Shown one piece after another: positions 1 to 28,857 of a DNA stretch of 64,000 nucleotides; the first letter of the stretch is position 1; each line of letters starts with the position of its first letter. Below the pieces are notes generated by a model. The model was not told where the DNA came from, ran no database searches, and worked only from the letters and a program-made list of their open reading frames with translations. Both the position numbers and the translations under genes were made by a program. The stretch is from Patescibacteria group bacterium (GTDB lineage Bacteria; Patescibacteriota; Minisyncoccia; Phycocordibacterales; UBA9973), in NCBI GenBank assembly GCA_038063535.1, contig JBBTUV010000004.1:114238-178237 (forward strand). The letters run 5' to 3'.

Positions 1-97
1 GAAAGAAACTTCTTCCGGGTCAACCTTGCCGAAGACCGGGAGTTCCGGCGGCGGCGGAGCGTATCTGATTATTTGGACCTTATTATGACGGACCATG

Positions 98-1861
98 CTA
101 TGATTTTAGCACTTTTTGCTCTTTGTTCATACGGCGAAAAACGGAATTGTTTTGGTTCATGAGCTCATCATAGGCTCCTTCTTCCACTACTTGTCCCCTT
201 TCCATTACGGCAATCTTGTCCGTGTATTTAAGCGTGCCCAGGCGGTGAGCGATTATGAGAAATGTTTTGTCTTTGCCGTAAACGCCTAAAAGCTTTTCCA
301 TAATTTTTCCTTCCGTCTCCGAATCAAGCGACGAAGTCGCTTCGTCGAGAATTATTATCGGCGCATTTTTGTAAATCGCGCGGGCGATCCCCAGGCGCTG
401 GCGCTCTCCGCCGGAGAGCATATAGCCCTTTTCACCGATTTTCGCGTCGAGCCCCTCCGGTAGTTTGGCGATCACTTCACCAAGTTGAGAAATTTCAGTA
501 GCCTGATTCAGAAGCTCGCTGTCGCCGCTGCGCATCATAGTAATATTGTCGCGAAGCGAGAGGTTAAAGAGCTCGGTCTCTTGTAGAACTACAGTGATGC
601 TCGAAAGCGTTTCGTTGTGCGAAATCGAGTAATAGTTTTTGTTGCCAATTTTGAATTCACCGGACTCGAGCGCGTAAAGGCCTAAAATTATTTTTGCCAG
701 AGTTGACTTGCCGGAGCCGGAGAGTCCCGCGATCCCCGTCTTTGTATTTCTCGTGAGCGTCAAATTAAAATCCTTCATCCCCATCTGCCCCGACCCGTAA
801 TCCATGTTTGCATTTTTAATCTCGATTGCTTTCCAATCTCTCGGGAACGTTTCATTGCCTCTTTTGATAAACTCCGTTTCTCTAAATATAGGCATCATGT
901 TGCCCAGATCGGACCTGAGCTCAATAAGATCTGAATGCATATTACTGAAATCTCCCAACCCATCACGTAGTCTAAAAAAATAGGCGAAGGCAACCAATAC
1001 TGTTCCTATGGTGATAACCTGAGCGATTACCTCCTTCGCTGTCAAAAATAAGAAGAACATTAATGCTGTACCGTTTATGAACTGTAAAAGATACCACTTA
1101 CTATATCCCGCTTTTGATCTTTTTATTGACATATCCCGCGATTCCTCTTCTCTATTGGCCACACGCGCGCTAATATTTTGTTCACTACCTAGGGCTTTCA
1201 CTGCAAGTAAATTGCTTGCACTTTCTACATACACTCCACCCGCAGCTTGGTTAAATTTATTGAATTCATTACTCAATCGTAGAATTTTTTTGCTTAGCGT
1301 AAATTCTATCGACAAGAAGAGAGCAGTATAAACGAAGATTACAATGGCCAACTTATAATCAATGAAAGACAATATAATAATTGCCCCGACAATGTCGGCA
1401 AAAATTTTGAGAATATCTTTTGTCAAAGCTCCTAGCCAGGACTTGATAGAATCGGCACCAGTAAAGATACGCTGAATTTTGCTTCCAATATTTTCCTTAC
1501 TGTGCCATTCAAGAGAAAATTCAGTTAACCTTTCAAATCCCCAAATTCGCGCCTTGGCTCTGCCCCTTTGTCCCATTATTGATATATTCATCTTGCTGTA
1601 CAAGCGAATTAAAGACGCAGCAATATATGTGCCCCCAATGAAAAGAACATAACCATACAGGGGCTCAAGAGGATCACCGGGAGAGTGTATTGTTAAAAGA
1701 TCAATAATTTTTCCCGTTACATAAGGAGGGACAAAAGTATAGAAGAAAATAGATGAAAGTAGAATTGTAAAAAAAATGAATTTTCTTCTATCATTCTCTA
1801 AGAAATACCAAATTGCCTTTGGTACGTCCCACCAGGAAAAATTTTTTACGTCCTCCTTCAT
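98..1861 (-). CDS. ABC transporter, fused permease/ATP-binding protein (MsbA-like exporter)
   Basis: 587 aa; N-terminal multi-TM region; Walker A GLSGSGKST; ABC signature LSGGERQRLGIARA; Walker B IIILDEATSSLD. Confidence 0.85.
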   Translation of the reverse strand: MKEDVKNFSWWDVPKAIWYFLENDRRKFIFFTILLSSIFFYTFVPPYVTGKIIDLLTIHSPGDPLEPLYGYVLFIGGTYIAASLIRLYSKMNISIMGQRGRAKARIWGFERLTEFSLEWHSKENIGSKIQRIFTGADSIKSWLGALTKDILKIFADIVGAIIILSFIDYKLAIVIFVYTALFLSIEFTLSKKILRLSNEFNKFNQAAGGVYVESASNLLAVKALGSEQNISARVANREEESRDMSIKRSKAGYSKWYLLQFINGTALMFFLFLTAKEVIAQVITIGTVLVAFAYFFRLRDGLGDFSNMHSDLIELRSDLGNMMPIFRETEFIKRGNETFPRDWKAIEIKNANMDYGSGQMGMKDFNLTLTRNTKTGIAGLSGSGKSTLAKIILGLYALESGEFKIGNKNYYSISHNETLSSITVVLQETELFNLSLRDNITMMRSGDSELLNQATEISQLGEVIAKLPEGLDAKIGEKGYMLSGGERQRLGIARAIYKNAPIIILDEATSSLDSETEGKIMEKLLGVYGKDKTFLIIAHRLGTLKYTDKIAVMERGQVVEEGAYDELMNQNNSVFRRMNKEQKVLKS

Positions 1862-3792
1862 TCGAGAACCCTCCTCAAGACGTCTTCAGGCACTTCTTTA
1901 GTTTTTTCAGCCTTAGGCTGACCAGCCTCTGGCTGGTACGGCGGAGGCGGCGCAGCTTGCCCTGAGCTTGCTTGTTGTGAGCTCGTCGAACCAGTCGAAG
2001 GGGGCACTTTTTCTTCGATTACTTTTTTTAATTTATCCATATCCTCGGCTTTTGCGGACAAATCTCTTGCGTCTTTTGTTTCTTTTCTTTCATTTTTTTT
2101 CAAATTCGCAAGCGAGATCGGTGGCGGGGTCGGCTTTACTTCTTCTTTCATCGCTTTGCTCAAAACTTCTTTGAGACCGACATTGTCTTTCTGCTGCCTA
2201 TGGAATTTTTTTGGGGGAACCTTCGGGCTCTCAATGCCGGTGGGCGAAAATTCTATTCCGAGCGCGGCAAGCGGCTCGTAAAACGTAGCCTCCTTTTCTA
2301 TAAGCTCTTTTTTCGAAAGGCGGACAGGCTGGATCTCTCCAACCTTTATCTTCGCGTGGCAATCGTCGCAATAAACTGGGCGGCCCGGTTCGGGCTTGAA
2401 AGGCACCATCGTTTCTCTTCCGCAATTCGAGCAGATCGCCTTGAATCGCTCGCTCGAGGGTATCGGCTCGTCACCTAGAGCCATCCCGCTCCAGTCGGTG
2501 ATCTCTTTCTCAACATCGACGCGCGGCCGGCAATAAAGCTCACGAGATGCTTTGATAACTTCACGTTCTATCGCTGGGTCGCTCCGGTTTTCGATCGGGG
2601 GCAATGTCTTTGCCGAGAATGGCCTTGAAGTTATGCCGTCGATCATGAGCTTCATGTAAACCTTGTAGTTCGGCAGATTCACGATATCTTGCGGAGTGAA
2701 TTCCGGCTCGAATTCTGCTTCGAGAAATTCAGCGTCATCGGCACCCACGCGGAAAACTATCATAGTGCCGACGTTGCCAAAGACTGCATCGCGAACAGAA
2801 GAATTTTTCTCCGCCACGAGTTGGGCGGTGTACTGGTGCGCGATGGTGAGGTTTAGGCGGTATTTGCGCGCCTCCGATAGGATGCCTGCGAAAGCGTCGG
2901 TCACGAAATTTTGGAATTCGTCGACGTAGAGGTAAAAATCCTTTCGCTCGTCCTCGGGGATCCTCACGCGCTCCATCGCCGCAAGTTGGATCTTGGTGAT
3001 GATCATGCCACCCAAGAGCGCGGAGTTATCTTCGCCGATCCGGCCCTTCGAAACGTTTACCAAGAATATTTTTCCTTGGTTCATGATGTCGAAGATGTTG
3101 ATGGTGCTTTGCGACTGGCCGACGACGTTTCGGATGATCGAGGTTGAGAGGAACTGACCGACTTTGTTTTGGATCGGAGCGATCGCTTCGTTTCGGAACT
3201 TATCCTGCCAGGCCTCGTACTCGTGTATCCAAAATGCCTTGATCACCGGGTCCTTCAGATTGTTGATGATTTTTTGCCGGTAGTCTTTGTCGACGAGCAT
3301 GCGCGGGATGCCAAGGAGCGTGGTTCCTGGCGTATCAAGAAGCGCGAGGATCGTGTTGTTCAAAATATATTCCATGCGAGCGCTCCAGGCGTTCGCCCAG
3401 ATCTTAGTAAATATTCCCATCAGGCCCGAGGCGACGAGGTGTTTGTACTTCTCGTCCACAAGTTCAAGTACGTTGAAGCCGATATGATAGTCGGTATCGG
3501 CTGGGTTGAAATAAATGACGTCTTTCATCCGGTTTGACGGGATGGCGGAGAGGACGGATTCCACTAATTCGCCGTGCGGGTCTACCACGCAGACGCCTTC
3601 GCCGTTCCGGATGTTCTGGATAATCATGTTGAACATCAGGACCGATTTGCCGGTGCCGGATTTTCCCAAGAGATAAACATGCTGGCGCCTATCCTTGCGC
3701 TTGATGCCAAAGAGAGTGTTTTTATCCCGATAGGTCGTGAGCCCAAGATAGGTAATCTCCCTATTTATCGGTATTTCCGGAATGTCAGGCAT
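1858..3792 (-). CDS. VirD4/TraG-like P-loop NTPase (T4SS coupling-protein family) with C-terminal zinc ribbon and low-complexity K/E/P-rich tail
   Basis: Walker A LLGKSGTGKSVLMF; Walker B FYLYVDEFQNF; CSNCGRE..(17 aa)..CDDCH zinc ribbon; ~130 aa low-complexity C-terminus; overlaps upstream ABC gene by 4 nt. Confidence 0.5.
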   Translation of the reverse strand: MPDIPEIPINREITYLGLTTYRDKNTLFGIKRKDRRQHVYLLGKSGTGKSVLMFNMIIQNIRNGEGVCVVDPHGELVESVLSAIPSNRMKDVIYFNPADTDYHIGFNVLELVDEKYKHLVASGLMGIFTKIWANAWSARMEYILNNTILALLDTPGTTLLGIPRMLVDKDYRQKIINNLKDPVIKAFWIHEYEAWQDKFRNEAIAPIQNKVGQFLSTSIIRNVVGQSQSTINIFDIMNQGKIFLVNVSKGRIGEDNSALLGGMIITKIQLAAMERVRIPEDERKDFYLYVDEFQNFVTDAFAGILSEARKYRLNLTIAHQYTAQLVAEKNSSVRDAVFGNVGTMIVFRVGADDAEFLEAEFEPEFTPQDIVNLPNYKVYMKLMIDGITSRPFSAKTLPPIENRSDPAIEREVIKASRELYCRPRVDVEKEITDWSGMALGDEPIPSSERFKAICSNCGRETMVPFKPEPGRPVYCDDCHAKIKVGEIQPVRLSKKELIEKEATFYEPLAALGIEFSPTGIESPKVPPKKFHRQQKDNVGLKEVLSKAMKEEVKPTPPPISLANLKKNERKETKDARDLSAKAEDMDKLKKVIEEKVPPSTGSTSSQQASSGQAAPPPPYQPEAGQPKAEKTKEVPEDVLRRVLE

Positions 3793-3807: not shown

Positions 3808-5736
3808 CTATTTTGAAGTTTCGTCGGGGTTCTCGCCCTCCTTTTTCTCTTTGAATTCCGCGTCGCGGACTTCGCCAGGTTGCTCTTCGGGAGTCGAAGA
3901 TTCTGAACTCGCTGAGGGGTTTGCCTTTTGCATTGCCTCCCCTATTTTAGACATTTCGGCCGAGAGTTCTTCGGTGGCGCTCTTTATAGCCGCAACGTCA
4001 GCGCCGTCTTTGACTTCCTTCAGCGCTGCGATCTTTTTATTTACGTTTTCTTTTAGCTCCGCCGGCACTTTCGTTTCGTTGTCTTTAAGCGCCTTCTCGG
4101 CTGTATAGATTATCATCTCCGCGGTATTCTTCACGTCCGCAGTCTCTTTCTTCTTCTTGTCCTCCTCTGCATGCGCCCCCGCATCCGCCTGCATTTTCTT
4201 TATGTCTTCATCTTTGAGGCCGGAGCTTGCTTCGATGCGAATAGATTGCGACTTGCCGGAAGCTTTATCCATAGCCTTCACGTTCAAGATGCCGTTCGCG
4301 TCCACATCGAACGTCACTTCCACCTGCGGCATGCCTCGGGGCGCCGGCGGGATACCGTCCAGAATAAAGCGCCCGAGTGATTTATTGTCCGCTGCCATCG
4401 GCCGCTCGCCTTGGACCACGTGGATTTCCACACTGGTTTGATTATCTGCAGCCGTTGAGAAAATCTGCGACTTAGCCGAAGGGATGGTCGTATTTCTTTC
4501 AATAAGTTTAGTTCCCACACCGCCCAGAGTTTCAATTCCGAGCGAAAGCGGAATGACGTCAAGAAGGAGCACATCCTTCACATCTCCCTGAAGCACACCA
4601 GCCTGCACGGCTGCGCCAAGAGCCACCACTTCGTCAGGGTTCACGCCCATATGCGGCGGCCTCCCGAAAAACTCCTCCACCTTTTTTTGGATCATCGGCA
4701 TGCGAGTCTGCCCGCCGACTAAAATTACTTCCTGTATATCCCCAACCTTAAAAGGCGATGCCTCCATCGCGCGCTTGGTGATCATCATCGCTCTATCTAC
4801 AAATTCGCGGCAAATTTCCTCGAGGTCCGCGCGCTTCATGGTGCGTACCAAGTGTAGCGGTCCAGCATCGCTCGATGTTATGAACGGTAAATTGATCTCT
4901 GATTCCACTGCGCTCGAGAGCTCGATCTTCGCTTTCTCCGCGGCGTCATCGAGGCGCTGCTTGGAAAGAGGGTCTTTGCGCAAGTCCACTCCGTGTTCGC
5001 GAGCGAAGCCGTCCGCGAGCCAGTCTATTATCTTCTGGTCGATGTCCTTGCCTCCGAGGTGCGCGTCTCCATCCGTTGAAACAACCTCAAGAGAGCTTTC
5101 CCCCTCCTTGCTCATGTCGACTTGAAGAATAGAGATATCAAATGTTCCTCCACCGAAATCAAATACAGCTATTTTTTCACTTTTATTTTTATTAAACCCG
5201 TAGGCAAGTGCTGCGGCGGTGGGTTCGTTTATAATTCTTTTGACATTGAGTCCTGCTATAGCACCCGCATCTTTGGTTGCCTGTCGTTGAGAGTCGTTAA
5301 AATACGCCGGGACAGTGATGACTGCTTCGGTGATCTTCGTACCGAGTTTGGCCTCTGCATCAGCCTTGAGCTTGCCTAGTATCATTGCCGAAATTTCCTC
5401 CGGGCGATACCATTTGTCCCCCATCTTTACTTCGATTCCGCCGTTTTCAGATTTCCGAGTTTCAAATGGAACTGCCTGAATATCTTTCTGAACTCCCGGC
5501 TCGTCGTATGAGTGGCCAATAAATCTTTTGATTTGAAAAACTGTGTTTCTCGGATTTGTTACACTCTGGCGCTTGGCAAGCACGCCGGTCAGCCTGTCAC
5601 CGTTTTTGGCAAGAGCAACGACAGAAGGCGTGGTACGCATACCTTCAGCATTTTCTAGTATTTTCGGCTCCCCGCCCTCGATGAATGCCATCGCCGAGTT
5701 AGTTGTTCCTAAGTCTATACCTATGATTTTTGACAT
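3808..5736 (-). CDS. dnaK: Molecular chaperone DnaK (Hsp70)
   Basis: N-terminal [24 protein letters not shown] and full-length Hsp70 architecture with acidic C-terminus. Confidence 0.95.
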
Positions 5737-5758
5737 GTTTTTTGCGCTCGCAAATTAC

Positions 5759-5786
5759 TTGTATAATACCAGTATAGTGCTATACT
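5759..5786 (+). promoter_or_regulatory. sigma70-like promoter (TTGTAT-16-TATACT) driving the near-leaderless PaaX-like gene; the -10 overlaps a 7-2-7 inverted repeat AGTATAG-TG-CTATACT
   Basis: Boxes read directly; ATG lies 6 nt after the -10; inverted repeat at 5771-5786. Confidence 0.45.
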
Positions 5787-5792
5787 TAAAAC

Positions 5793-6302
5793 ATGTCAAG
5801 CAATATCAGGAAAATCCTTAAATTACTTGCTGAAAAGCCCGCGATACCCGTAGAGACTCTTAAGGACCGAAACGACCCAAAGGCTTCCTATGCCCTTGCA
5901 AGAACCGCAAGGGCCCTTGTAACGGGCGGATATGTGGAAATGCTAAATTCGAGCCGGGAAAGCTATTTGCGGCTTACCAAGAAAGGTAAAACCAGGCTCG
6001 ATACCATACGCCTAGAGGGAGATGGGATGCCCGTAGCGCAAAATTGGGATGGCAAGTGGCGAATAATTATTCTTGATATCGACGAAGCAAGGAAGAGTGA
6101 ACGTGAAGCACTACGATATCTCTTGAAGAAAGCAAATTTCGTCTGCGTTAAGAATACCGTCTGGATCTCGCACCTCCCCTACGAGCATCTTTTTGAGAAT
6201 ATAAAAAAGGATCTCGGCCTCACCACCGAGCTCATGATCCTCGTCACTGATAATCTAGACCCCGAAACCCGTCTTGCTTTCCTAGAGGCCCTCAAAAAAT
6301 AA
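5793..6302 (+). CDS. PaaX-like winged-helix transcriptional regulator
   Basis: Central WDGKWRIIILDIDEARKSEREALRYLL resembles the PaaX C-terminal domain (WDGxWhhh...LPExxRxxRxxLR); N-terminal wHTH-like region; divergent from dnaK. Confidence 0.5.
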   Translation: MSSNIRKILKLLAEKPAIPVETLKDRNDPKASYALARTARALVTGGYVEMLNSSRESYLRLTKKGKTRLDTIRLEGDGMPVAQNWDGKWRIIILDIDEARKSEREALRYLLKKANFVCVKNTVWISHLPYEHLFENIKKDLGLTTELMILVTDNLDPETRLAFLEALKK

Positions 6303-6332: not shown

Positions 6333-8045
6333 TCAGTAGACTTCTTGCTGATAGCAACGCTCGCAGTAGATTATTTCCGGCCGCTCGGAGGAATAAGTGG
6401 TTTTGAATTCTTCCAGGCACTTCCCTTCTCCGTGAAAGTGCTCGTTCTTTTCACACATGCATGATCTGTCCCAAAGCTTTAATGGATTTCTTTGTTTAAT
6501 CCTCTGGAAATGCCGGCAGTTCGGACACAGGCGTGGAAAAGGCAGACTCATTCTTTTGTAGAATTTAAATTCCTCTGGAACAATTTTGAAAGCCTCGGTG
6601 CATTGTTCTTCACAACCCCCAGCATGAGCACAAGCGATTGTTTTGTTCAAAATGTCTTCAGGAACGTCCTGGATATGATCAGGGATTTCATTGCTCGCGA
6701 TATCAATTTTATAGTTTCTTTTCTTCTCTTCCCGCCATTTGTATCCTTGTTTCTCTGCTTGCGTTTTAGTTAAAGGAAAATACTCTTGGGCTATAGTTTC
6801 GTTGTAGGCAAGCGGCGAGAGCCAGGCCGGGAAAAATTCCCCGAATTCCTTATTTTTTATCATGTGCTCGACTATTTTGGGCACAAGTTTCTCGTATTCC
6901 TCTTTTGAATACTGCTTATTCAGGACGCAATATTCTTTTTTGCGCAGGCCGATGCAGCCGAAAATATTCCGGCATTCGTGACATTCTTCATTGTAACGTG
7001 CATCTTGGTTGTTAATATTACGAGTTCCAAAAGCAACATTGTGACCACCAAAACAGTGCGCAATTTCATAGACCAACTCGCTCCCCCACCCCTGGAAGGA
7101 GGTATCGTAGCAATCCTTCGCAACGTTCCTAATATAGAATAAAAATCTTGAATCCTCAATTTGAGCAGAGGAATAAGAATCTTTCGTGTTTCGGGATTCA
7201 TAAAGATCGTCTCCTGTGGAGTTAACCGACTTTATAATCCTCGCAAAGCGATGGATGGCCTGTCTATCCAATTCTGCAAGTTTTTTCTTATATTCTAAGT
7301 GAGCTTCAAAACTCCCTAAGTTGGCTTTCTCAATGAATTTTTTGTATTCCTCTCTAGAGTGTGGTTTGTTCCAGATGTGATATTGCTTGTTTCTAAGACC
7401 CACACAACCGAAGCAGTTTATGCAGTTTTTGCAGTCAATCAAATAGTAGCTTTCCACGCAAGCTTCTGAATGCCCACTAAAAAATAAATTATTGGACCCA
7501 AGGCATTCAAAAAGTTCGTAGCTGAATTCAATCTTCTCGCAGAATGCGATATCCATCGAATCGCCAGAATTGAAAATTTGATTGGCAAAGTATACTCTTT
7601 CATTACCCTTTCCCCCGAAAAGCAGATAGCAATCTCGAAAGTCCAGCCCGTAGTTGCAGTATTCGCTATTTACAAAATTCGTCCGATATAGATTCACTCG
7701 TGGCACAGAAACCTGGAGTGAACGGAATTGATTGAAAAAAGGCTGAGAAAAATCATAAGGCCTGCCGTAAGAGAGTGGGTCCCATTTGTCGGAAAGCCAG
7801 CAGTCCCGGCAGTAAATTGTAAAAGGCTCTTCCTCGTGGTAAATAGTCAGTGTTGATTCTCCGCAGAGAGCGCATTTACGCCGGTAGAAAACACGATTAT
7901 TTCTAAAAAGGAGTCTCCGCTGGAACCGACAATCCGGGCAGAAAGTCGGCGGTGGCACCTGCATCTTCTCGTAAAAATTAAAATCTTCCGGCTCGATTAC
8001 GAAGTTGTTTTTACAATTCTGGCAAGTTTTAGTTTCCGCGTTCAT
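6333..8045 (-). CDS. Large cysteine-rich protein, uncharacterised family; paralog of 27166..28857
   Basis: 570 aa; N-terminal CxxC..(23)..CPxCR and CxxC..(17)..CRDC zinc ribbons, repeated at the C-terminus; two internal CxNCFGCxGLRxKxY...NK..S.EEYxK repeats; ATGA overlap with purL stop. Confidence 0.7.
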   Translation of the reverse strand: MNAETKTCQNCKNNFVIEPEDFNFYEKMQVPPPTFCPDCRFQRRLLFRNNRVFYRRKCALCGESTLTIYHEEEPFTIYCRDCWLSDKWDPLSYGRPYDFSQPFFNQFRSLQVSVPRVNLYRTNFVNSEYCNYGLDFRDCYLLFGGKGNERVYFANQIFNSGDSMDIAFCEKIEFSYELFECLGSNNLFFSGHSEACVESYYLIDCKNCINCFGCVGLRNKQYHIWNKPHSREEYKKFIEKANLGSFEAHLEYKKKLAELDRQAIHRFARIIKSVNSTGDDLYESRNTKDSYSSAQIEDSRFLFYIRNVAKDCYDTSFQGWGSELVYEIAHCFGGHNVAFGTRNINNQDARYNEECHECRNIFGCIGLRKKEYCVLNKQYSKEEYEKLVPKIVEHMIKNKEFGEFFPAWLSPLAYNETIAQEYFPLTKTQAEKQGYKWREEKKRNYKIDIASNEIPDHIQDVPEDILNKTIACAHAGGCEEQCTEAFKIVPEEFKFYKRMSLPFPRLCPNCRHFQRIKQRNPLKLWDRSCMCEKNEHFHGEGKCLEEFKTTYSSERPEIIYCERCYQQEVY

Positions 8046-10894
8046 TTCATGCTGTCGGAGAACTTATGATAAAGGCGATGCAATTTGTTGACAGAATATT
8101 TTTTGAGGCCGAACTTGAGTTGGTTACGCCCTGTAACTACCCCAAGGCGGGTATACGGGACACTTTTTGCTATTTTTTCAAACGCCGGCATGTTTTCCGG
8201 CGCAACCGAAACCAATACCCTGCCTTGGCTTTCTGAAAATAAGTTGTGTTTGCTGACATCAACACCCGCCCCAAGCATTCCACCAATGCAGGCTTTGCTT
8301 AAGGCAACCGCCAGGCCGCCGGAGGTGAGAGAAATCGACGAGGCAAGAAGCTCTTTTTCTATCGTTCGCTCGAGCGATCTGTATATTTTTAAATTAGCCC
8401 TTGCGTCGACCCTAATTCCTTTTTTAGTTTTACCGAGGAGATATATTACGTCGCCCGCGCTCTTGAACTCCGGAGTAACGACTTTATTTATGTCAGGCAC
8501 GACGCCGATCGAGGAGATAAGGAGAGTTGGCGGCACGGAGACTTTGGTCGGCCGGCCCATAGCATCAAAACCCTTGAAGTCGTTGAACATACTGTCCTTG
8601 CCGGAGACGAAAGGCGTCCTGTAGGCAATCGAGTAATCATAGCAAGCACGAGCGGCTTCCTTGAGCTGCCACAAGCGTTCCGGCTCGTTTGAAGAGCACC
8701 AGCAGAAATTGTCGAGAAGCGCGAGATGGTCGAGTTTTGCACCGGCTACGACGGCGTTCCGGACAGCGGTATCTATGGCTGCGGCGGCCATATCATAAGG
8801 GCTCGTTTCGCTCAATTCCGGATAAAGGCCGAGGGAGAGCACGACCCCTTTTTTTGAAGTAAGTACCGGCTGGAAGACCTGCGCGTCGGTATTGATGCGG
8901 CCCGGACCGGAGAGCGGTTTTAGGATCGAGCCGGCTTGAACCTCGTGGTCGTATTGCTCGGAGATGAAAGCGAAACTGCTGATGTTCTTATCGGCGAGAA
9001 GTTTTTCCAAGCTTCTCGCGACTGGCTTCGGGCTCGCGGGCTTAGGCCGCCTGGTGCGCAGATGAACTTTCGGTCGGCCGTCGTGCAGGAATCCCATATC
9101 CATATCCATTATCTTCTTACCGCGCCAGCGGAGCACGCATCTACCCGAGCCAGTAAACTCACCGATCCGAGTTGCCTCCACGCCGCGACTCTTCATCAGA
9201 GCCGCGAACCTCGCCCAATTGCGCTTGGGTACGGCCAGGGTCATCCGCTCCTGCGATTCCGATACCCATATCTCCCAAGGTTGCATATTCGCGTACTTAA
9301 GCGGTACTTTTTCGAGGTTCACTACCACCCCCTTTGATTCCTTGGCCATCTCCGAGACCGAAGAGGACAACCCACCAGCGCCATTGTCGGTGATGCTGTG
9401 ATAGAGATTTTCACCGCGTGCTTCCTTAACCACTACGTCCGAGAGCTTTTTCTGGGTAATCGGGTCACCGATCTGAACCGCACTCACAGGAGAATTCGCA
9501 TCAATAGCGAGAGATGAGAAAGTCGCCCCATGGATGCCGTCTCGACCCACGCGTCCGCCGATCATAACCACATAATCGCCGGGCTTCGCGCCTTTCTTGT
9601 AAAGCAACCGGCCGTGCTCGCGCTTTGGCATGAGGCCGACCGTACCCGCGAAGACAAGCGGTTTGCCCCGATATCTTTCACCGAAACGCACAAAACCCGA
9701 GACGGTGGGGATGCCGGAAGTGTTGCCGCCGGCATTGATGCCTTTTATCACCCCTTCCATGATCCTTTTCGGCGGGAACATTTTCTGGGTCAAGTCTCGG
9801 TCGCGATAAAGCGGTCTGGTATCCTCGGGCAATCCGAAACAAAAGCCGTATGTATTGGCAATGGGTTTCGCACCCAAACCGAAACCGATAGAATCGCGGT
9901 TCACGCCCACGATGCCGGTGATGGCTCCGCCGAAGGGGTCGAGCGACGAGGGAGTGTTGTGCGTTTCGACTTTATGAGAGATGAGGTATTTATCGTCGAA
10001 CTTGATCGCGCCGGAGTTATCGGAGAAGACGGATACGCAAATATCTCCGCGCCCGCGCTTTTCCCTTATTTTATTTGTGGCACCCTTTATGTAAGTTTTG
10101 TAGAGTCCGTCCCGGATATTATCGATCGCAGAAGCGAAGATCGTGTGCTTGCAGTGTTCGCTCCATGTTTGGGCGAGCGACTCAAGCTCGATATCGGTTG
10201 GGCGGCGACCGAGTTTGCGAAAATAATCGCGGATCGCCTTCATGGAGCGAAGGTCGAGCGCAAGCGGCCCCCGGCCCTCGATACCCTGCTCGCTGATTTT
10301 CTTAAGCTCACTGTCCCCCACCTCAAGGTCAATCTTCGTTACTGGTCTACGCTTCTCAAGGGTGACCTTCGGCACAGATTGGGGAAGCATCAATTTCCCG
10401 TTTCCTACCTTGCGGATCTCACCACGCTCAATAAGCGGATTGTAAAGCGAGGCCGCAATTTTTTTCAGCGCCGCCGCACCGACCTTGCCCTTCAGTAAAA
10501 AAACTCGCGATGTATATACCTCGATGCCCTTCTTTCCGAGCAGATCTTCGGCCATTTCCCGCACCGTGTGCCCGACGTTGTCGGTGACGCCAGGCAGATA
10601 GCCCACTTCGATGGCTAACCTGTGCCCTTCGGCCGGAGCGCGGTCAATATAAAAGCGCTCGGTGACGGGGTTGGTAAGTGCACGGGCAATCTTTGCGACA
10701 TTTCCGTGCGAGAGACGCGCGTCGAGCGCATAGACGTCGAGTAGGCGAAGGCTACGGACTCCGTACGCGCGCCAGGACTTGAGATATTTGAGGGCTCTCG
10801 GGTCCACGCTTCTCGCCGCGACGTATATCCGCGAAATCATACCGGGATTATAACAGAAAATCCTCTCATATGAATGATTCAGCAAGTAATCCAA
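8042..10894 (-). CDS. purL: Phosphoribosylformylglycinamidine synthase, large-type synthetase (PurL) lacking the glutaminase domain
   Basis: 950 aa; N-terminal region resembles the large-PurL N-domain (LRSMKAIRDYFRKLGRRPTDIELESLAQTWSEHCKHTIF); AIR-synthase-like motifs (GIVGVNRDSIGFG, SITDNGAGGLSSSVSEMA). Confidence 0.8.
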   Translation of the reverse strand: MDYLLNHSYERIFCYNPGMISRIYVAARSVDPRALKYLKSWRAYGVRSLRLLDVYALDARLSHGNVAKIARALTNPVTERFYIDRAPAEGHRLAIEVGYLPGVTDNVGHTVREMAEDLLGKKGIEVYTSRVFLLKGKVGAAALKKIAASLYNPLIERGEIRKVGNGKLMLPQSVPKVTLEKRRPVTKIDLEVGDSELKKISEQGIEGRGPLALDLRSMKAIRDYFRKLGRRPTDIELESLAQTWSEHCKHTIFASAIDNIRDGLYKTYIKGATNKIREKRGRGDICVSVFSDNSGAIKFDDKYLISHKVETHNTPSSLDPFGGAITGIVGVNRDSIGFGLGAKPIANTYGFCFGLPEDTRPLYRDRDLTQKMFPPKRIMEGVIKGINAGGNTSGIPTVSGFVRFGERYRGKPLVFAGTVGLMPKREHGRLLYKKGAKPGDYVVMIGGRVGRDGIHGATFSSLAIDANSPVSAVQIGDPITQKKLSDVVVKEARGENLYHSITDNGAGGLSSSVSEMAKESKGVVVNLEKVPLKYANMQPWEIWVSESQERMTLAVPKRNWARFAALMKSRGVEATRIGEFTGSGRCVLRWRGKKIMDMDMGFLHDGRPKVHLRTRRPKPASPKPVARSLEKLLADKNISSFAFISEQYDHEVQAGSILKPLSGPGRINTDAQVFQPVLTSKKGVVLSLGLYPELSETSPYDMAAAAIDTAVRNAVVAGAKLDHLALLDNFCWCSSNEPERLWQLKEAARACYDYSIAYRTPFVSGKDSMFNDFKGFDAMGRPTKVSVPPTLLISSIGVVPDINKVVTPEFKSAGDVIYLLGKTKKGIRVDARANLKIYRSLERTIEKELLASSISLTSGGLAVALSKACIGGMLGAGVDVSKHNLFSESQGRVLVSVAPENMPAFEKIAKSVPYTRLGVVTGRNQLKFGLKKYSVNKLHRLYHKFSDSMK

Positions 10895-11498
10895 GGACTT
10901 CTGCGTCTGTCACCTGTTCAAATGCGCGGTAGTGAGAACCAACTGCTCCCTTAAACTCTTCCGGCGGCTCAAGTACTATGATCTCATCCACTCCATCACG
11001 TTCAAGCTCCCTAATGGACTCTGCCGGTGCAACTGGAACGGCCACGACCACTTTCTTGGGATGATCCTTCATTACTCTCTTAACGGCAAGACGCATACTA
11101 AAACCCGTCGCAATGCCGTCGTCAGTGAGGATTACTATTTTGTTTTTTAAATTTATCAGTGGGCTATTGCCACGGTAGGCCAAACTTCTGCGAAGCGCTT
11201 CTTTCTTTTCTTTTTCTATTTCATTCGCAAGCCATTTTTTATCAATACTTTCAGCTTCTCCCTCGTTAAGGAGTAGAGTGCCCTTCTCATCGACAACTCC
11301 TACCGCGTATTCAGGATTCCCTGGAAGACCGATTTTTCGAACGGGAATAATATCTAGCGGTGCCTTGATTGCCTTAGCTACCTCGTATCCAAGCACAACT
11401 CCCCCTCGCGGAAGCGCCAAGACAACCACATCCTCTCCACTGTATTTAAGCAACGTCATCGCAAGCGCTTTCCCGGCTTCGGTTCTGTCTTTGAACAT
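10866..11498 (-). CDS. Phosphoribosyltransferase-domain protein (predicted PRTase, unknown substrate)
   Basis: PRPP-binding motif IVILTDDGIATGFSM and VLALPRGGVVLGYEVA. Confidence 0.75.
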   Translation of the reverse strand: MFKDRTEAGKALAMTLLKYSGEDVVVLALPRGGVVLGYEVAKAIKAPLDIIPVRKIGLPGNPEYAVGVVDEKGTLLLNEGEAESIDKKWLANEIEKEKKEALRRSLAYRGNSPLINLKNKIVILTDDGIATGFSMRLAVKRVMKDHPKKVVVAVPVAPAESIRELERDGVDEIIVLEPPEEFKGAVGSHYRAFEQVTDAEVLGLLAESFI

Positions 11499-15863: not shown

Positions 15864-16730
15864 ATGGAATTTAAATTGGAGATATTAGAAGGAACTCGGA
15901 TACCAACAGCGCTTCTCGAAATTCCCCAACCACCCAAAAAGCTTTACCTGGCTGGCAGACTGCCGCCCAAGGATACTGTTTGCCTCGCGGTCGTCGGTTC
16001 TCGCAAGGCGACGACTTACGGAAAGGATGCGGTGCGAAGATTAATTTCCGGCTTACGCGGCTACCCGATTGCCGTTGTTTCCGGTCTTGCTCCGGGTATT
16101 GACGCCCTTTCACACGAAGCGGCGTTGGACGTCGGTCTTTTAGCCGTAGGGTTCCTGGGCTCGGGAATTTCACGGGAGGCTCTCTCGCTTCACCCGAATA
16201 CTGACTTAATGAGAAGGATTATAGAGGCGGGCGGATGCCTGGTTTCCGAATTCGAACCTGACTTCAAGGCCCAATATTATTCCTTTCCGATGAGAAACCG
16301 TCTAGTGGCGGGAATTTCCCGCGCGGCTCTTATTGTCGAGGCCGGAGAGAAATCAGGCACACTCATCACCGCGCGGATGGCGCTTGATTATGGCAGGGAT
16401 GTGCTCGCGGTTCCGGGGCCAATAAATTCTCTGACCTCAATCGGTACCAATAGGCTCCTGCGGCAAGGCGCGACCCCGATAACTTCCAGTGAGGATATTC
16501 TCGAGGCGCTGGGATTCAAAATTGACGAGAGGACCCGGCTCGCTACCTTTTTCGATGACGCCTCTCCCGAAGAAAAATCTGTATTAAAAATACTTTCTGA
16601 ACCGATACCTCGGGACGACCTAGTCCGCGCGATGAAAATGAATATTGCTGAAGCCAACTCGCTTCTTTCAATTATGGAAATCAAGGGCCTGATTAAAGAA
16701 GAGCTCGGCGAAATCCGCACGGCGTTTTGA
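15864..16730 (+). CDS. dprA: DNA processing protein DprA (Smf)
   Basis: Rossmann-like LAVVGSRKATTYG...VVSGLAPGIDALSHEAAL, C-terminal wH-like region. Confidence 0.85.
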   Translation: MEFKLEILEGTRIPTALLEIPQPPKKLYLAGRLPPKDTVCLAVVGSRKATTYGKDAVRRLISGLRGYPIAVVSGLAPGIDALSHEAALDVGLLAVGFLGSGISREALSLHPNTDLMRRIIEAGGCLVSEFEPDFKAQYYSFPMRNRLVAGISRAALIVEAGEKSGTLITARMALDYGRDVLAVPGPINSLTSIGTNRLLRQGATPITSSEDILEALGFKIDERTRLATFFDDASPEEKSVLKILSEPIPRDDLVRAMKMNIAEANSLLSIMEIKGLIKEELGEIRTAF

Positions 16731-27165: not shown

Positions 27166-28857
27166 TCAGTAGATCTCTTTGTTATAGCAGGATTCGCAGT
27201 AGACCTTTTCTTTTCGCTCTGGCGCAAAAGCAGTTTCGAATTCGTTTGGGCACAACCCGTTATGGTCATGGTTTTCTAAATTACATCGGCATTTCCCGTG
27301 CCAGAGCTTTCTGGGTGGGCGTAAATTGAACCACCTCATGTATCTACAATCAAAACAAAGCCTAGGGATTGGCATATTTTCATTTTTATAAAAAGTAAAT
27401 TCGTATGGAACAATATTGTAGTTTTTTGAGCAGTTTATGCATTTCAAAACTTCTTTTGTTATGTCGTCCTTAATATCTTTTATGTTATCAGGTATATCTT
27501 CTGGCTCCATTGTTTCTTTCCCATATGTCCCGAGAATTTTATCTTCCCATTGCCAACCCCTTCTAAGTACTTCTTCTTTAGTCATTGGCAGGTAACGTTG
27601 ACCCTGCGTCTCATTGTAGCAAACCGGAGCAATTGAGGGGGGCATAAATTCACCAAACTCTCTAGTTTTTTTCATGTGATCGATAATTTTAGTTCTTAAT
27701 TTTTCATATTCATCTTTTGAATATTTCTTATTTAAAATCATATATTCTCCCTTTTTTACAGAAATGCAGCCAAATAAATTTTGGGAATTTTGGCACGTGT
27801 CTCCGTACATCACATTCATGTTGTCATAGCAAAGATGACAAAATTGGCAATTTGACACTCGAGTACAACCCTGAGCTTCGTAGATTTGTTCGCACTCTAG
27901 GCCTACATGATAACAATCAAAAGAGTCTCTGATGCCCAAGACGGAGTACATGTATTTTGAATTTTCTACTCTTTCAGCGTCGAAAATAAAACTCGAATTC
28001 TTCACATGGGTAAACATATTACCAAGAGCGTTTATATTAAATTCTCCTGTTACGTATTTATGAATTGCTTGATTTGCTATCATTTCTACAAATTCCCTAT
28101 AAAGTTTCTCTCGGACAGCGAAAGAACCCAGGTCATATTCGGAAACTTTTTTCATATATTCTTTACGGGGATGTTCCTCATTTTTGAAACAGTATTTTTT
28201 GTTACGAAGATTATAGGATAAAAAGCAATCTGTGCACCCATGCATATCGTGAGAGTAATGAACATTCACACAATCTCTCATTAGAAAATTATATTGGCAT
28301 TGGTATGATTTGATTACATCCATGCACCCATACATCCGTTCTCCTTTTTCTCTTACGTAATAACAATCCATGCAATCTCGAGAATAAAATACCCAGTTAC
28401 TATAGTAAACATTTTCGTTAAAAAATGAAGAAATAGAGAGGTAGACGTTCTTATTATCGCCAGAATGATTCGTGTATTCAGAATTCACACTTCTTTTATT
28501 GAGTAGCGCCATGCGGGGAACTTCGAGTTGTAATTCATGAAATTGCTCGAAGAAGGGCCGGTTGAAATCAAAGTCTCGACCGTAAGAGCTCGCGTCCCAA
28601 CCGTCACCCCACCAGCATTCATTGCAGTAAACTTTGTGAGGCTTGTTTGGCGAATAAATAGTTACCGTGCTTTTACCGCAAAGATCACAGTTCCTACGAT
28701 AGAGCGTTCGTTCGTTTCTCCAAGCATAACGGCGTAACTGCCGGCACTCCGGGCACCAGGTTGGTGGCGTGACGGAGATCTTTTTGTAAAAATCAAAATC
28801 TTCCGGCGCGATTACGAAATCTTTTTTACAATTTTGGCACGAGCGGGTTTCCATCAA
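27166..28857 (-). CDS. Large cysteine-rich protein, uncharacterised family; paralog of 6333..8045
   Basis: 563 aa, collinear with the 570-aa paralog (same N- and C-terminal double zinc ribbons, same internal duplicated unit); ATGA overlap with rseP stop. Confidence 0.7.
   Translation of the reverse strand: MMETRSCQNCKKDFVIAPEDFDFYKKISVTPPTWCPECRQLRRYAWRNERTLYRRNCDLCGKSTVTIYSPNKPHKVYCNECWWGDGWDASSYGRDFDFNRPFFEQFHELQLEVPRMALLNKRSVNSEYTNHSGDNKNVYLSISSFFNENVYYSNWVFYSRDCMDCYYVREKGERMYGCMDVIKSYQCQYNFLMRDCVNVHYSHDMHGCTDCFLSYNLRNKKYCFKNEEHPRKEYMKKVSEYDLGSFAVREKLYREFVEMIANQAIHKYVTGEFNINALGNMFTHVKNSSFIFDAERVENSKYMYSVLGIRDSFDCYHVGLECEQIYEAQGCTRVSNCQFCHLCYDNMNVMYGDTCQNSQNLFGCISVKKGEYMILNKKYSKDEYEKLRTKIIDHMKKTREFGEFMPPSIAPVCYNETQGQRYLPMTKEEVLRRGWQWEDKILGTYGKETMEPEDIPDNIKDIKDDITKEVLKCINCSKNYNIVPYEFTFYKNENMPIPRLCFDCRYMRWFNLRPPRKLWHGKCRCNLENHDHNGLCPNEFETAFAPERKEKVYCESCYNKEIY

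What the first reader, a model, noticed from the sequence alone, without database searches (positions are those of the whole stretch)
1858..3792. Standalone VirD4/TraG-like coupling ATPase with C-terminal zinc ribbon and ~130-aa low-complexity tail, next to an MsbA-like exporter
The protein has the Walker A and B of T4SS coupling / FtsK-HerA-like ATPases. It is not accompanied by any other T4SS, relaxase or pilus genes in the window. It ends with a CxxC...CxxC ribbon and a long K/E/P/S-rich disordered tail. It overlaps the upstream ABC exporter by 4 nt. Such orphan VirD4-like proteins in reduced genomes could function in DNA uptake or export or in protein translocation rather than conjugation.
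Basis: partly seen in the sequence, partly recalled or inferred. Interest (0 to 1): 0.5.

Follow-up and report, generated by a model that had tools for sequence, protein, structure and literature searches.

The report
Split coupling-protein ATPase inside dnaK operon
The gene encodes a real VirD4/TrwB-type secretion "coupling" ATPase with a zinc finger and a long tail, but it is not an orphan: in hundreds of ultra-small Patescibacteria it sits with a sister copy between the chaperone genes dnaK and dnaJ, is conserved at least as strongly as DnaK, and its membrane-anchor half is encoded elsewhere.

Summary
The ORF (1858..3792, minus strand, 644 aa) is real. It has intact Walker A and B motifs, a TrwB-like helical insert, a CxxC-x17-CxxC zinc finger, and a ~160-aa K/E/P-rich tail carrying five conserved short motifs.

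By profile and fold it belongs to the VirD4/VirB4 branch of FtsK-HerA ATPases, closest to coupling proteins (T4CPs).

"Standalone" is wrong:
- A 46%-identical paralogue starts 2 nt after the ABC exporter, so only its first 32 codons (window 96..1) are in the window.
- The order dnaK – this gene – (0-4 variable inserts) – paralogue – dnaJ recurs in most of 80 Nomurabacteria/Paceibacteria species genomes examined.
- The ABC exporter lies downstream, not upstream. It is a low-GC, variable insert, not MsbA.

The ATPase core is more conserved than DnaK in 93% of genome pairs.

In other Patescibacteria the orthologue is fused to, or directly follows, DUF8128, a domain with an N-terminal membrane anchor. 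An actinobacterial conjugative T4CP has the same layout.

Best reading: the ATPase half of a split, duplicated monoderm-type T4CP, co-expressed with the Hsp70 system. Its substrate is unknown.

Orphan T4CP homologues in Patescibacteria were reported in 2025; I did not find the dnaK-operon and DUF8128 context in what I searched.

The parts
1858..3792 (-). Full ORF, 644 aa: T4CP-like ATPase, then CxxC-x17-CxxC zinc finger, then tail (includes stop codon)
   Evidence: identical to P0001, an NCBI MAG of the Patescibacteria group
2593..3711 (-). ATPase core, aa ~28-400 (RecA-like nucleotide-binding domain with inserted helical domain)
3643..3666 (-). Walker A, G43-KSGTGK-S50
   Evidence: Invariant in alignment A1. 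Aligns to the TrwB P-loop.
3079..3453 (-). All-alpha insert, aa ~114-238, at the position of the TrwB all-alpha domain
   Evidence: AF2 model helices H114-238, block pLDDT ~60-89 (mostly ~80). TrwB_AAD_bind profile match.
2917..2937 (-). Walker B, F286-YLYVDE-292
   Evidence: D291 and E292 are invariant. Aligns to the TrwB Walker B.
2833..2877 (-). SEARKYRLNLTIAHQ (aa 306-320). Aligns to the TrwB GRK…GLQ segment, a candidate arginine finger and sensor.
   Evidence: R309, K310, H319 and Q320 are invariant. The catalytic role is inferred.
2347..2451 (-). CxxC-x17-CxxC treble-clef zinc finger, aa 448-482
   Evidence: PF23477 3.5e-15; TIGR04272 4.1e-16. Motif located at 2359..2433. Small Methanosarcina proteins with this domain bind zinc (PMC12704099).
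1861..2346 (-). C-terminal tail, aa 483-644: K/E/P-rich, with five conserved linear motifs including the C-terminal EVPEDVLRRVLE (1861..1899)
1..96 (-). First 32 codons of the paralogous second T4CP-like ATPase ('T4CP2', 494 aa). It runs off the window edge and is followed by dnaJ in the same genome.
98..1861 (-). ABCB-type exporter (587 aa), a variable low-GC insert between the two ATPase paralogues
3808..5736 (-). dnaK, directly upstream (15-nt gap) and probably co-transcribed
5771..5799 (-). Sigma-70-like promoter candidate for the dnaK operon (TTGACA-17-TATACT, 11 of 12 positions)
   Evidence: consensus match only
5793..6302 (+). Divergent PaaX_M-domain protein, a conserved neighbour of dnaK in this clade and a candidate operon regulator
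   Evidence: present in 58 of 65 loci
6333..8045 (-). Cys-rich ~570-aa protein ('CysR') carrying the same CxxC-x17-CxxC finger. It belongs to a paralogous family found in 0-4 copies on each side of dnaK/target.
27166..28857 (-). Second CysR paralogue in the window (40% identical to the first), outside the operon

Best explanation
The gene encodes the cytoplasmic ATPase half (nucleotide-binding domain plus all-alpha domain) of a monoderm-type type IV coupling protein (T4CP).

In Patescibacteria this T4CP has been duplicated. In the Nomurabacteria/Paceibacteria clade it has also been separated from its N-terminal membrane-anchor domain (DUF8128) and placed, with its paralogue, between dnaK and dnaJ.

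Shown:
- family-level homology and intact catalytic motifs;
- a paralogue in the same operon;
- synteny conserved across most of 80 species genomes examined (of 492 with a close relative);
- conservation at least equal to DnaK;
- fusion or adjacency of orthologues to DUF8128;
- a DUF8128-like N-terminal region in a genuine conjugative T4CP.

Inferred mechanism:
- The protein forms an ATP-driven ring, possibly mixed with the paralogue.
- It is held at the membrane by the separately encoded DUF8128 protein.
- It uses its zinc finger and motif-bearing tail to bind substrates or adaptors, as T4CP C-terminal extensions do in TraD and DotL.
- It delivers them to a membrane channel, most plausibly the chromosomal Patescibacterial T4SS.
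- The co-transcribed DnaK/DnaJ/GrpE system keeps protein substrates in a transferable state.
For: Family:
- Pfam T4CP families score above gathering thresholds.
- Foldseek's best matches are TrwB, Cag-beta and DotL.
- tblastn finds 32% identity over 90% of the core to an 812-aa Embleya plasmid T4CP. That gene sits among TrbL/VirB6-like, PrgI, VirB4-like, Replic_Relax and NlpC/P60 genes.

Split architecture:
- 61 of the 150 closest 50%-identity cluster representatives are DUF8128-ATPase fusions; 0 of 120 close homologues are.
- DUF8128 lies directly upstream of a zinc-finger orthologue in L088 and in Moraniibacteria CP065011.
- One Nomurabacteria WGS set (SIBT01) has both the dnaK-operon pair (L042) and a separate Sigma70_r4/HARE-HTH–DUF8128 locus with no ATPase (L090).
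- The N-terminus of the Embleya T4CP matches my DUF8128 HMM collinearly.

Operon:
- DnaK is upstream in 61 of 68 loci.
- The paralogue is downstream in 52 of 55 loci, and is followed by DnaJ in 52 of 52.
- The gap to dnaK is 15 nt with a ribosome-binding site, and no terminator-like site follows dnaK on that strand.

Constraint:
- Mean pairwise identity is 90.4% for the core, 84.2% for DnaK, 87.1% for the paralogue and 76.8% for DnaJ.
- The core exceeds DnaK in 692 of 741 genome pairs.

Literature: 5,713 VirD4-type T4CP homologues were found in 2,918 of 3,026 Patescibacteria assemblies, about 2 per genome, and only 148 lie near virB4 (PMC12102498).
Against: - No T4SS gene lies within the 64-kb window or within ±10 kb in four annotated relatives.
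- All NCBIfam TraD/VirD4 equivalogs score far below their cut-offs.
- The AF2 model is only moderate (pLDDT 66), with aa 320-394 poorly modelled.
- DUF8128 was not located in this window's own genome.
- The dnaK linkage is clade-specific. Distant relatives sit behind a Sigma70_r4/HARE-HTH gene instead, sometimes near secDF.
- The T4CP homologue of S. epibionticum was reported as non-essential although its T4SS is essential (PMC12102498).
- Operon membership may reflect co-expression only.
- The 80 loci were chosen by similarity of this protein, which inflates its identity to the window. The pairwise comparison and the unselected paralogue reduce this bias but do not remove it.
Confidence: 0.5

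Rival explanations
1. Exapted, T4SS-independent housekeeping motor. The two ATPases, with or without DUF8128, form a Patescibacteria-specific machine that remodels or translocates proteins together with DnaK/DnaJ/GrpE. Examples would be unfolding or export of clients such as the Cys-rich zinc-finger paralogues. No VirB4 channel would be needed.
For: - The pair is embedded between dnaK and dnaJ in most of the 80 related species genomes examined.
- The core is more conserved than DnaK.
- T4CP homologues are rarely near virB4, and they occur in more assemblies (2,918) than VirB4 (~2,450).
- The co-operonic CysR proteins share the same rare CxxC-x17-CxxC finger.
- The authors of PMC12102498 themselves raise exaptation.
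Against: - The 96% vs ~81% difference in occurrence is what MAG incompleteness would produce for a two-copy versus a one-copy gene.
- ClpB is present in Nomurabacteria, so no disaggregase gap needs filling.
- The dnaK linkage is absent in other Patescibacteria lineages.
- The minimal operons lack CysR.
- No FtsK-HerA family member is known, to my knowledge, to work with Hsp70.
Confidence: 0.25
2. DNA motor. A membrane-tethered hexameric DNA translocase used for DNA uptake or nucleotide scavenging, DNA export, or chromosome handling. The zinc finger and the neighbouring Sigma70_r4/HARE-HTH protein would act as DNA-binding adaptors.
For: - The closest solved relatives are mostly DNA translocases: TrwB, HerA, DptH-C, FtsK.
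- A helix-turn-helix protein (Sigma70_r4 with or without HARE-HTH) sits directly upstream of DUF8128[-ATPase] in 5 independent loci.
- DprA is in the window.
- Patescibacteria are naturally competent and depend on imported nucleotides (PMC11665869).
Against: - No DNA-processing partner (relaxase, nuclease, ComEC) is linked in any locus seen.
- The Sigma70_r4 protein is not homologous to the Replic_Relax protein of the Embleya cluster (E 0.24) and may simply be a regulator.
- Competence is dispensable for growth in S. epibionticum, which fits poorly with the extreme conservation.
Confidence: 0.17
3. Remnant of an integrated conjugative element, or a HerA-like anti-phage defence ATPase.
For: - Weak PADLOC hits to mad8 (3e-14) and HerA.
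- Pfam DUF87 30 bits.
- Relatives occur on plasmids.
Against: - GC content equals that of dnaK (51%), and all flanking genes are housekeeping.
- There is no integrase, relaxase, nuclease or Sir2 partner.
- The position is fixed across most of the 80 related species genomes examined, under very strong purifying selection.
Confidence: 0.03

Closest known systems
TrwB (R388) / TraD / VirD4 type IV coupling proteins
   Same: - P-loop nucleotide-binding domain with an inserted all-alpha domain.
- Walker A and B motifs and the GRK…Q segment align.
- Pfam TrwB_AAD_bind, T4SS-DNA_transf and TraG-D_C score above threshold.
- Best Foldseek match.
   Different: - Only ~15% identity.
- No N-terminal transmembrane helices.
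- No linked relaxase or T4SS.
- Extra zinc finger and a 160-aa tail.
- NCBIfam equivalogs score far below cut-off.
Monoderm (FATA-type) conjugative T4CP, e.g. Embleya sp. plasmid WP_331738717.1 (812 aa)
   Same: - 32% identity over 90% of the ATPase core.
- Its N-terminal ~390 aa (one hydrophobic helix plus a DUF8128-like region ending in the ELAALAHLP motif) matches the architecture of the DUF8128-fused Patescibacteria orthologues.
   Different: - The Embleya gene lies in a full conjugation cluster (VirB6-like, PrgI, VirB4-like, Replic_Relax, NlpC/P60).
- The window gene lacks the N-terminal domain and sits in the dnaK operon.
Patescibacterial 'T4CP homologues' of Quiñonero-Coronel et al. 2025 (PMC12102498)
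   Same: Almost certainly the same proteins. They report ~2 per genome, hits to the TrwB-type profile, rarely near virB4, and exaptation suggested.
   Different: The paper's text and held supplements contain no mention of DnaK/HSP70 or DUF8128. I did not look there for the zinc-finger/tail architecture or the conservation level.
DotL (IcmO) of the Legionella type IV coupling complex, and F-plasmid TraD
   Same: T4CPs whose C-terminal extensions recruit adaptors or substrates. DotL is a top structural match. The roles of the extensions are from my own knowledge.
   Different: The tail sequences are unrelated. No IcmS/W, DotM/N or TraM homologues were seen. The role of the tail here is inferred only.
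VirB4 C-terminal domain (4ag5) and DptH/DndH C-domain (7es4)
   Different: No VirB4 N-terminal domain or Dnd/Dpt context. Sequence profiles favour T4CP families.
HerA / DUF87 ATPases
   Different: No nuclease or Sir2 partner in the window or in the four fully annotated relatives. Structural scores are lower than for T4CPs.

Membership tests
Type IV coupling protein (VirD4/TraD/TraG/TrwB) | FtsK-HerA-type nucleotide-binding domain with Walker A and B | tested here: met
   GKSGTGKS (aa 43-50) and YLYVDE (aa 287-292) are invariant and align to TrwB.
Type IV coupling protein (VirD4/TraD/TraG/TrwB) | All-alpha domain inserted in the nucleotide-binding domain; Pfam T4CP domain models above gathering score | tested here: met
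   TrwB_AAD_bind 41.9 bits (cut-off 20.5), T4SS-DNA_transf 33.7 (20.1), TraG-D_C 26.6 (22). Helical insert at aa 114-238 in the model.
Type IV coupling protein (VirD4/TraD/TraG/TrwB) | N-terminal transmembrane anchor | tested here: not met
   Walker A starts at residue 43. A hydropathy scan finds a hydrophobic segment in only 1 of 120 close homologues. The anchor is supplied by DUF8128 in relatives, fused in 61 of 150 representatives.
Type IV coupling protein (VirD4/TraD/TraG/TrwB) | Genetic linkage to a relaxase and/or T4SS (VirB4) genes | tested here: not met
   None in the 64-kb window or within ±10 kb in four annotated relatives. The literature finds only 148 of 5,713 near virB4.
Type IV coupling protein (VirD4/TraD/TraG/TrwB) | Scores as an equivalog of a curated conjugative T4CP family (NCBIfam) | tested here: not met
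   SXT_TraD 49 bits vs 366; CD1115 47 vs 250; TraD_Ftype 27 vs 521.
Type IV coupling protein (VirD4/TraD/TraG/TrwB) | Fold closest to solved T4CPs rather than to other FtsK-HerA members | tested here: inconclusive
Type IV coupling protein (VirD4/TraD/TraG/TrwB) | Hexameric ring; substrate (DNA or protein) transfer dependent on ATP hydrolysis | not testable with these tools
   Needs biochemistry or cryo-EM.
CxxC-x17-CxxC domain (TIGR04272 / PF23477 zf_Tbcl_2) | Four Cys with 17-residue spacing; score above the curated cut-off | tested here: met
   58.4 bits vs 36 and 55.9 vs 27. C454, C457, C475 and C478 are invariant. Zinc binding is shown only for archaeal small proteins (PMC12704099).
VirB4 | N-terminal VirB4 domain plus C-terminal ATPase; curated family score | tested here: not met
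   No CagE_TrbE_VirB hit. The CD1110 VirB4-like model matches only aa 270-359 (23.7 bits vs 325). The C-terminal-domain fold is similar.
FtsK/SpoIIIE | FtsK_SpoIIIE motor domain (PF01580) | tested here: not met
HerA (with NurA/Sir2/DUF4297 partners) | Associated effector or nuclease gene | tested here: not met
   DUF87 passes its threshold (30.1 vs 23.2), but no partner gene is present. Neighbours are dnaK, an ABC exporter, the paralogue and dnaJ. The HerA N-terminal barrel was not specifically tested.
MsbA (for the neighbouring exporter) | Equivalog score | tested here: not met
   258.5 bits vs cut-off 602. From my own knowledge, the host phylum is monoderm and has no lipid A.

The most novel reading that the evidence does not exclude
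The two T4CP-like ATPases, the DUF8128 membrane protein and the Sigma70_r4/HARE-HTH protein together form a previously unrecognised, near-universal Patescibacteria-specific membrane translocation machine. It would operate independently of the VirB4 T4SS. In Nomurabacteria it would be mechanistically coupled to Hsp70. It could be, for example, the motor that moves host-derived or self macromolecules across the single membrane of these obligate epibionts. That would explain why its core is conserved more strongly than DnaK.
Probability: 0.22. Interest if true: 0.85.

Novelty: new variant of a known kind. Interest (0 to 1): 0.55.

Why it matters
Patescibacteria make up a large share of bacterial diversity, depend on host cells, and how they exchange macromolecules with hosts is largely unknown. 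T4CP homologues are present in ~96% of their genomes but have no assigned role.

This work adds four things:
- The ATPase is a split half of a monoderm conjugative-type coupling protein.
- It comes as a paralogue pair.
- It is under stronger constraint than Hsp70.
- In a large clade it is hard-wired into the dnaK–dnaJ operon.

These give concrete, testable hypotheses:
- a DUF8128–ATPase interaction;
- mixed rings of the two paralogues;
- chaperone-assisted substrate delivery;
- the zinc-finger Cys-rich paralogues as clients or adaptors.

If the machine proves T4SS-independent, it would be a new core cell-envelope system of ultra-small bacteria. If it is simply the T4SS coupling protein, it identifies the missing substrate receptor of an essential secretion system.

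Tried and rejected
- ICE or conjugative-element remnant: rejected. All 51 window ORFs scanned are housekeeping, GC matches dnaK, and the position is fixed across species.
- Defence ATPase: PADLOC gives only weak mad8/HerA hits and there is no partner gene.
- Replacement for a missing ClpB disaggregase: rejected. ClpB is present in a Nomurabacteria assembly that also has the operon.
- Conserved functional link to the ABC exporter: rejected. It is directly downstream in 8 of 80 loci, sits in two alternative positions, has low GC, and shows 22-67% identity.
- Homology between the Sigma70_r4/HARE-HTH protein and the Replic_Relax protein of the Embleya cluster: none (E 0.24).
- DUF8128 versus solved structures by sequence profile: nothing.
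- CysR fold search: AF2 pLDDT 68, no PDB match with E<1.
- The AFDB50 library was unavailable.
- The local Pfam copy lacks PF26449, so DUF8128 assignments rest on precomputed hits and my own HMM.
- The 12-nt palindrome over the dnaK and paaX start codons is not conserved in other genomes.
- Literature searches for DUF8128, or for a dnaK–TraD link in CPR bacteria, found nothing relevant.

Full report
**Observation**

The ORF at 1858..3792 (minus strand, 644 aa) exists as described. Its features:
- Walker A, G43-KSGTGK-S50.
- Walker B, F286-YLYVDE-292.
- A SEARKY…AHQ segment that aligns to the GRK…GLQ segment of TrwB. All three motifs are invariant in 61 aligned homologues.
- Pfam hits above gathering score: TrwB_AAD_bind (aa 32-350), T4SS-DNA_transf, DUF87 and TraG-D_C.
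- A CxxC-x17-CxxC treble-clef finger at aa 448-482 (PF23477 3.5e-15; TIGR04272 4.1e-16).
- All NCBIfam TraD/VirD4 equivalogs score far below their cut-offs.
- Walker A begins at residue 43, and a hydropathy scan found a hydrophobic segment in only 1 of 120 close homologues. The protein therefore lacks the transmembrane anchor of canonical coupling proteins.
- The tail (aa 483-644, 161 aa; K 14%, E 12%, P 12%) is not featureless. Five islands are conserved across 120 homologues: FYEPLAALGIEF, NVGLKEVLSK, PISLANLKK, ARDLSAKAEDMDKLKKVIEEK, and the C-terminal EVPEDVLRRVLE.

**Fold**

An AF2 model of aa 1-510 is moderate (pLDDT 66, pTM 0.67; aa 320-394 poorly modelled).
- Foldseek against the PDB ranks TrwB first (E 3e-10), then Cag-beta and DotL, then HerA.

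The protein is therefore firmly in the VirD4/VirB4 branch of the FtsK-HerA superfamily. Sequence profiles favour the T4CP family. Fold alone does not separate it from the VirB4 C-terminal domain.

**Context in the window**

Every other sizeable ORF in the 64 kb is housekeeping. They include PurL-like, DnaX, Dus, FtsQ, SerS, DprA, TopA, RelA/SpoT, ParB, Mur enzymes, MreB, F-ATPase, release factor, GatB, Obg, PBP, MraW/MraZ and GreA. There is no VirB4, VirB6, relaxase or pilus gene.

- dnaK (3808..5736) is upstream. It is separated by 15 nt containing an AGGA ribosome-binding site.
- The ABC exporter (98..1861) is downstream, with the ATGA overlap.
- Two nucleotides after the exporter's stop, window 96..1 encodes MVRHNKVQIIRYAPPPPELPVFGKVDPEEVSF.
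- This is the N-terminus of a second VirD4-like ATPase of 494 aa. It was seen in full on a 12-kb contig carrying an identical copy of this protein and the same neighbouring genes (taken to be the same or a near-identical genome), where dnaJ follows it.
- The paralogue is 46% identical over 432 aa and keeps all catalytic motifs.

A strong promoter-like site (11 of 12 positions) lies just upstream of dnaK. No terminator-like site follows dnaK on that strand.

**Breadth**

- The exact protein is in an NCBI Patescibacteria MAG. More than 8,000 database proteins match it. The best 120 are full-length, 65-83% identical, and all carry the finger.
- A scan of one genome per GTDB species found 492 species with a close relative. 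The best 80 are all Nomurabacteria/Paceibacterota MAGs.
- I annotated their flanks by BLASTP against reference proteins. The order is GrpE – CysR(0-4) – [ABC] – PaaX-like(−) – DnaK – target – CysR(0-4)/[ABC] – paralogue – DnaJ – small membrane protein.
- DnaK is upstream in 61 of 68 loci with enough sequence. The paralogue is downstream in 52 of 55, and DnaJ follows the paralogue in 52 of 52.
- Twelve genomes have the minimal form DnaK–target–paralogue–DnaJ.
- An ABC exporter is directly downstream in only 8 of 80. It has 41.8% GC against 51% for the target and dnaK. It is a variable insert.

**Constraint**

Among 39 genomes with all four genes (741 pairs), mean identity is:
- target core 90.4%
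- paralogue 87.1%
- DnaK 84.2%
- DnaJ 76.8%

The core exceeds DnaK in 692 of 741 pairs. The loci were chosen by similarity of the target, which biases its identity to the window. The paralogue was not the selection criterion and still exceeds DnaK in 527 of 741 pairs.

**Wider family and the missing membrane half**

An exhaustive phmmer search of 1.84 billion cluster representatives gave 6,577 clusters at E<=1e-30.
- Of the 150 closest representatives, 61 are fusions of an N-terminal ~350-450-aa DUF8128 domain to the ATPase. None of the 120 close homologues are. DUF8128 has one N-terminal hydrophobic helix followed by basic residues.
- In other Patescibacteria a separate DUF8128 gene (425-433 aa) sits directly upstream of a zinc-finger orthologue. 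It is itself preceded by a Sigma70_r4(+HARE-HTH) protein. This is seen in L088/L089 and in the complete Moraniibacteria genome CP065011.
- Fused versions show the same upstream Sigma70_r4 gene.
- One Nomurabacteria WGS set (SIBT01) has both loci. SIBT01000012 carries the dnaK-operon pair. SIBT01000009 carries Sigma70_r4/HARE-HTH – DUF8128 – YceG with no ATPase next to it.
- Some unfused representatives retain the last 40-60 residues of DUF8128 at their N-terminus, which fits gene fission.
- No DUF8128 was found in the window or in the 86 related flanks.
- Representatives of the paralogue type in other lineages are also DUF8128 fusions. They end in a conserved F-[ED]-x-P-Φ-Φ C-terminus; this clade's paralogue ends in EAEPMI.

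**Link to real conjugation systems**

tblastn against plasmids found 546 records.
- An 812-aa Embleya protein is 32% identical over 90% of the core.
- It lies between a TrbL/VirB6-like gene, PrgI, a VirB4-like ATPase, a Replic_Relax protein and NlpC/P60. This is a monoderm conjugation cluster.
- Its N-terminal 390 aa have one hydrophobic helix and match my DUF8128 HMM in two collinear segments.

So DUF8128+ATPase looks like the native architecture of at least this monoderm conjugative T4CP, and the window protein is its ATPase half. This fits the published conclusion that the Patescibacterial T4SS derives from monoderm conjugation machinery. That paper also reports 5,713 VirD4-type T4CP homologues in 2,918 of 3,026 assemblies, only 148 near virB4, and raises possible exaptation (PMC12102498). 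Its text and held supplements do not mention DnaK or DUF8128.

**Interpretation**

Shown:
- family-level identity;
- split architecture;
- duplication;
- operon embedding;
- strong constraint.

Inferred:
- ring formation, possibly mixed with the paralogue;
- membrane docking through DUF8128;
- substrate or adaptor binding by the finger and tail;
- cooperation with Hsp70.

I favour a coupling-protein role feeding a membrane channel, most plausibly the chromosomal T4SS, with protein substrates (confidence 0.5). Alternatives are a T4SS-independent machine working with Hsp70 (0.25), a DNA motor (0.17), and a mobile-element or defence remnant (0.03).

The difference in occurrence between T4CP (96% of assemblies) and VirB4 (~81%) does not discriminate between these. 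A two-copy gene is simply missed less often in incomplete MAGs.

**Side finding**

The only other CxxC-x17-CxxC fingers in the window belong to two ~570-aa Cys-rich proteins, at 6333..8045 and 27166..28857 (40% identical, ~33 Cys each).
- This family occurs in 0-4 copies on either side of dnaK/target in related genomes.
- It has 7,690 homologues, all annotated 'hypothetical' and with no Pfam domain.
- It has low GC.
- It gives no significant PDB fold match.

The shared finger makes these proteins candidate clients or adaptors, but the minimal operons lack them.

**Verdict**

This is a real, well-conserved gene. The family call is right, but the 'orphan' reading is wrong. It is a new variant of a known kind, of moderate-to-good interest. 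It turns a vaguely noted 'T4CP homologue far from virB4' into a defined, testable module.

Noticed in passing
window 6333-8045 (-) and 27166-28857 (-); also L001, L003, L006 and most of L007-L086: An unannotated family of ~520-595-aa Cys-rich proteins (~33 Cys). Each has an N-terminal zf_Tbcl, a true CxxC-x17-CxxC finger, central Cys repeats, and a C-terminal second zinc-finger pair ending …YCEKCYQQEVY. Copy number is variable (0-4 on each side of dnaK/target). GC is low (38-42%). There are 7,690 homologues, all 'hypothetical', and no significant PDB fold match.
   Followed up: partly
window 5730-5741 and 5788-5799: A perfect 12-nt inverted repeat, TTGACATGTTTT / AAAACATGTCAA. Its arms cover the start codons of the divergent dnaK and PaaX-like genes and include the -35 box of the dnaK promoter candidate. 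The exact palindrome occurs only on the contig carrying the identical gene (L005), not in 90 other loci.
   Followed up: partly
window 5793-6302 (+): A PaaX_M (Cas2-like) domain protein with a winged-helix N-terminus is divergently transcribed from dnaK. It is conserved there in 58 of 65 related genomes. It may be the regulator of the dnaK operon in this clade.
   Followed up: partly
L087, L088/L089, L090, L091, L093: A 290-376-aa protein with an N-terminal Sigma70_r4 domain and usually a C-terminal HARE-HTH domain lies directly upstream of DUF8128, or of the DUF8128-ATPase fusion, in five independent Patescibacteria loci. secD/secF are nearby in two of them.
   Followed up: partly
L005 8510-9994 and representatives P0202, P0226, P0238, P0248, P0254, P0262, P0270: The paralogue lineage ends in a conserved extreme C-terminal motif: F/E-[ED]-x-P-hydrophobic-hydrophobic (EAEPMI in this clade). 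It resembles a docking peptide.
   Followed up: no
window 98-1861 (-), and window-wide: The ABC exporter has 41.8% GC, against 51% for the flanking dnaK and ATPase genes and 49.7% for the window. It occupies two alternative positions in related operons. This suggests repeated insertion.
   Followed up: partly
window 15864-16730 (+) and 10866-11498 (-): DprA (DNA-processing protein A) is present. A 210-aa phosphoribosyltransferase-domain protein could be ComFC-like. Both would fit natural competence, but the second was not tested.
   Followed up: no
L094 (Sulfitobacter plasmid NZ_CP081110, 99994-101181): The closest non-Patescibacteria relative in the plasmid collection is 37.8% identical and 395 aa long. 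My hydropathy scan found no transmembrane segment. It sits alone, beside transposases, on a plasmid typed as non-mobilizable.
   Followed up: partly
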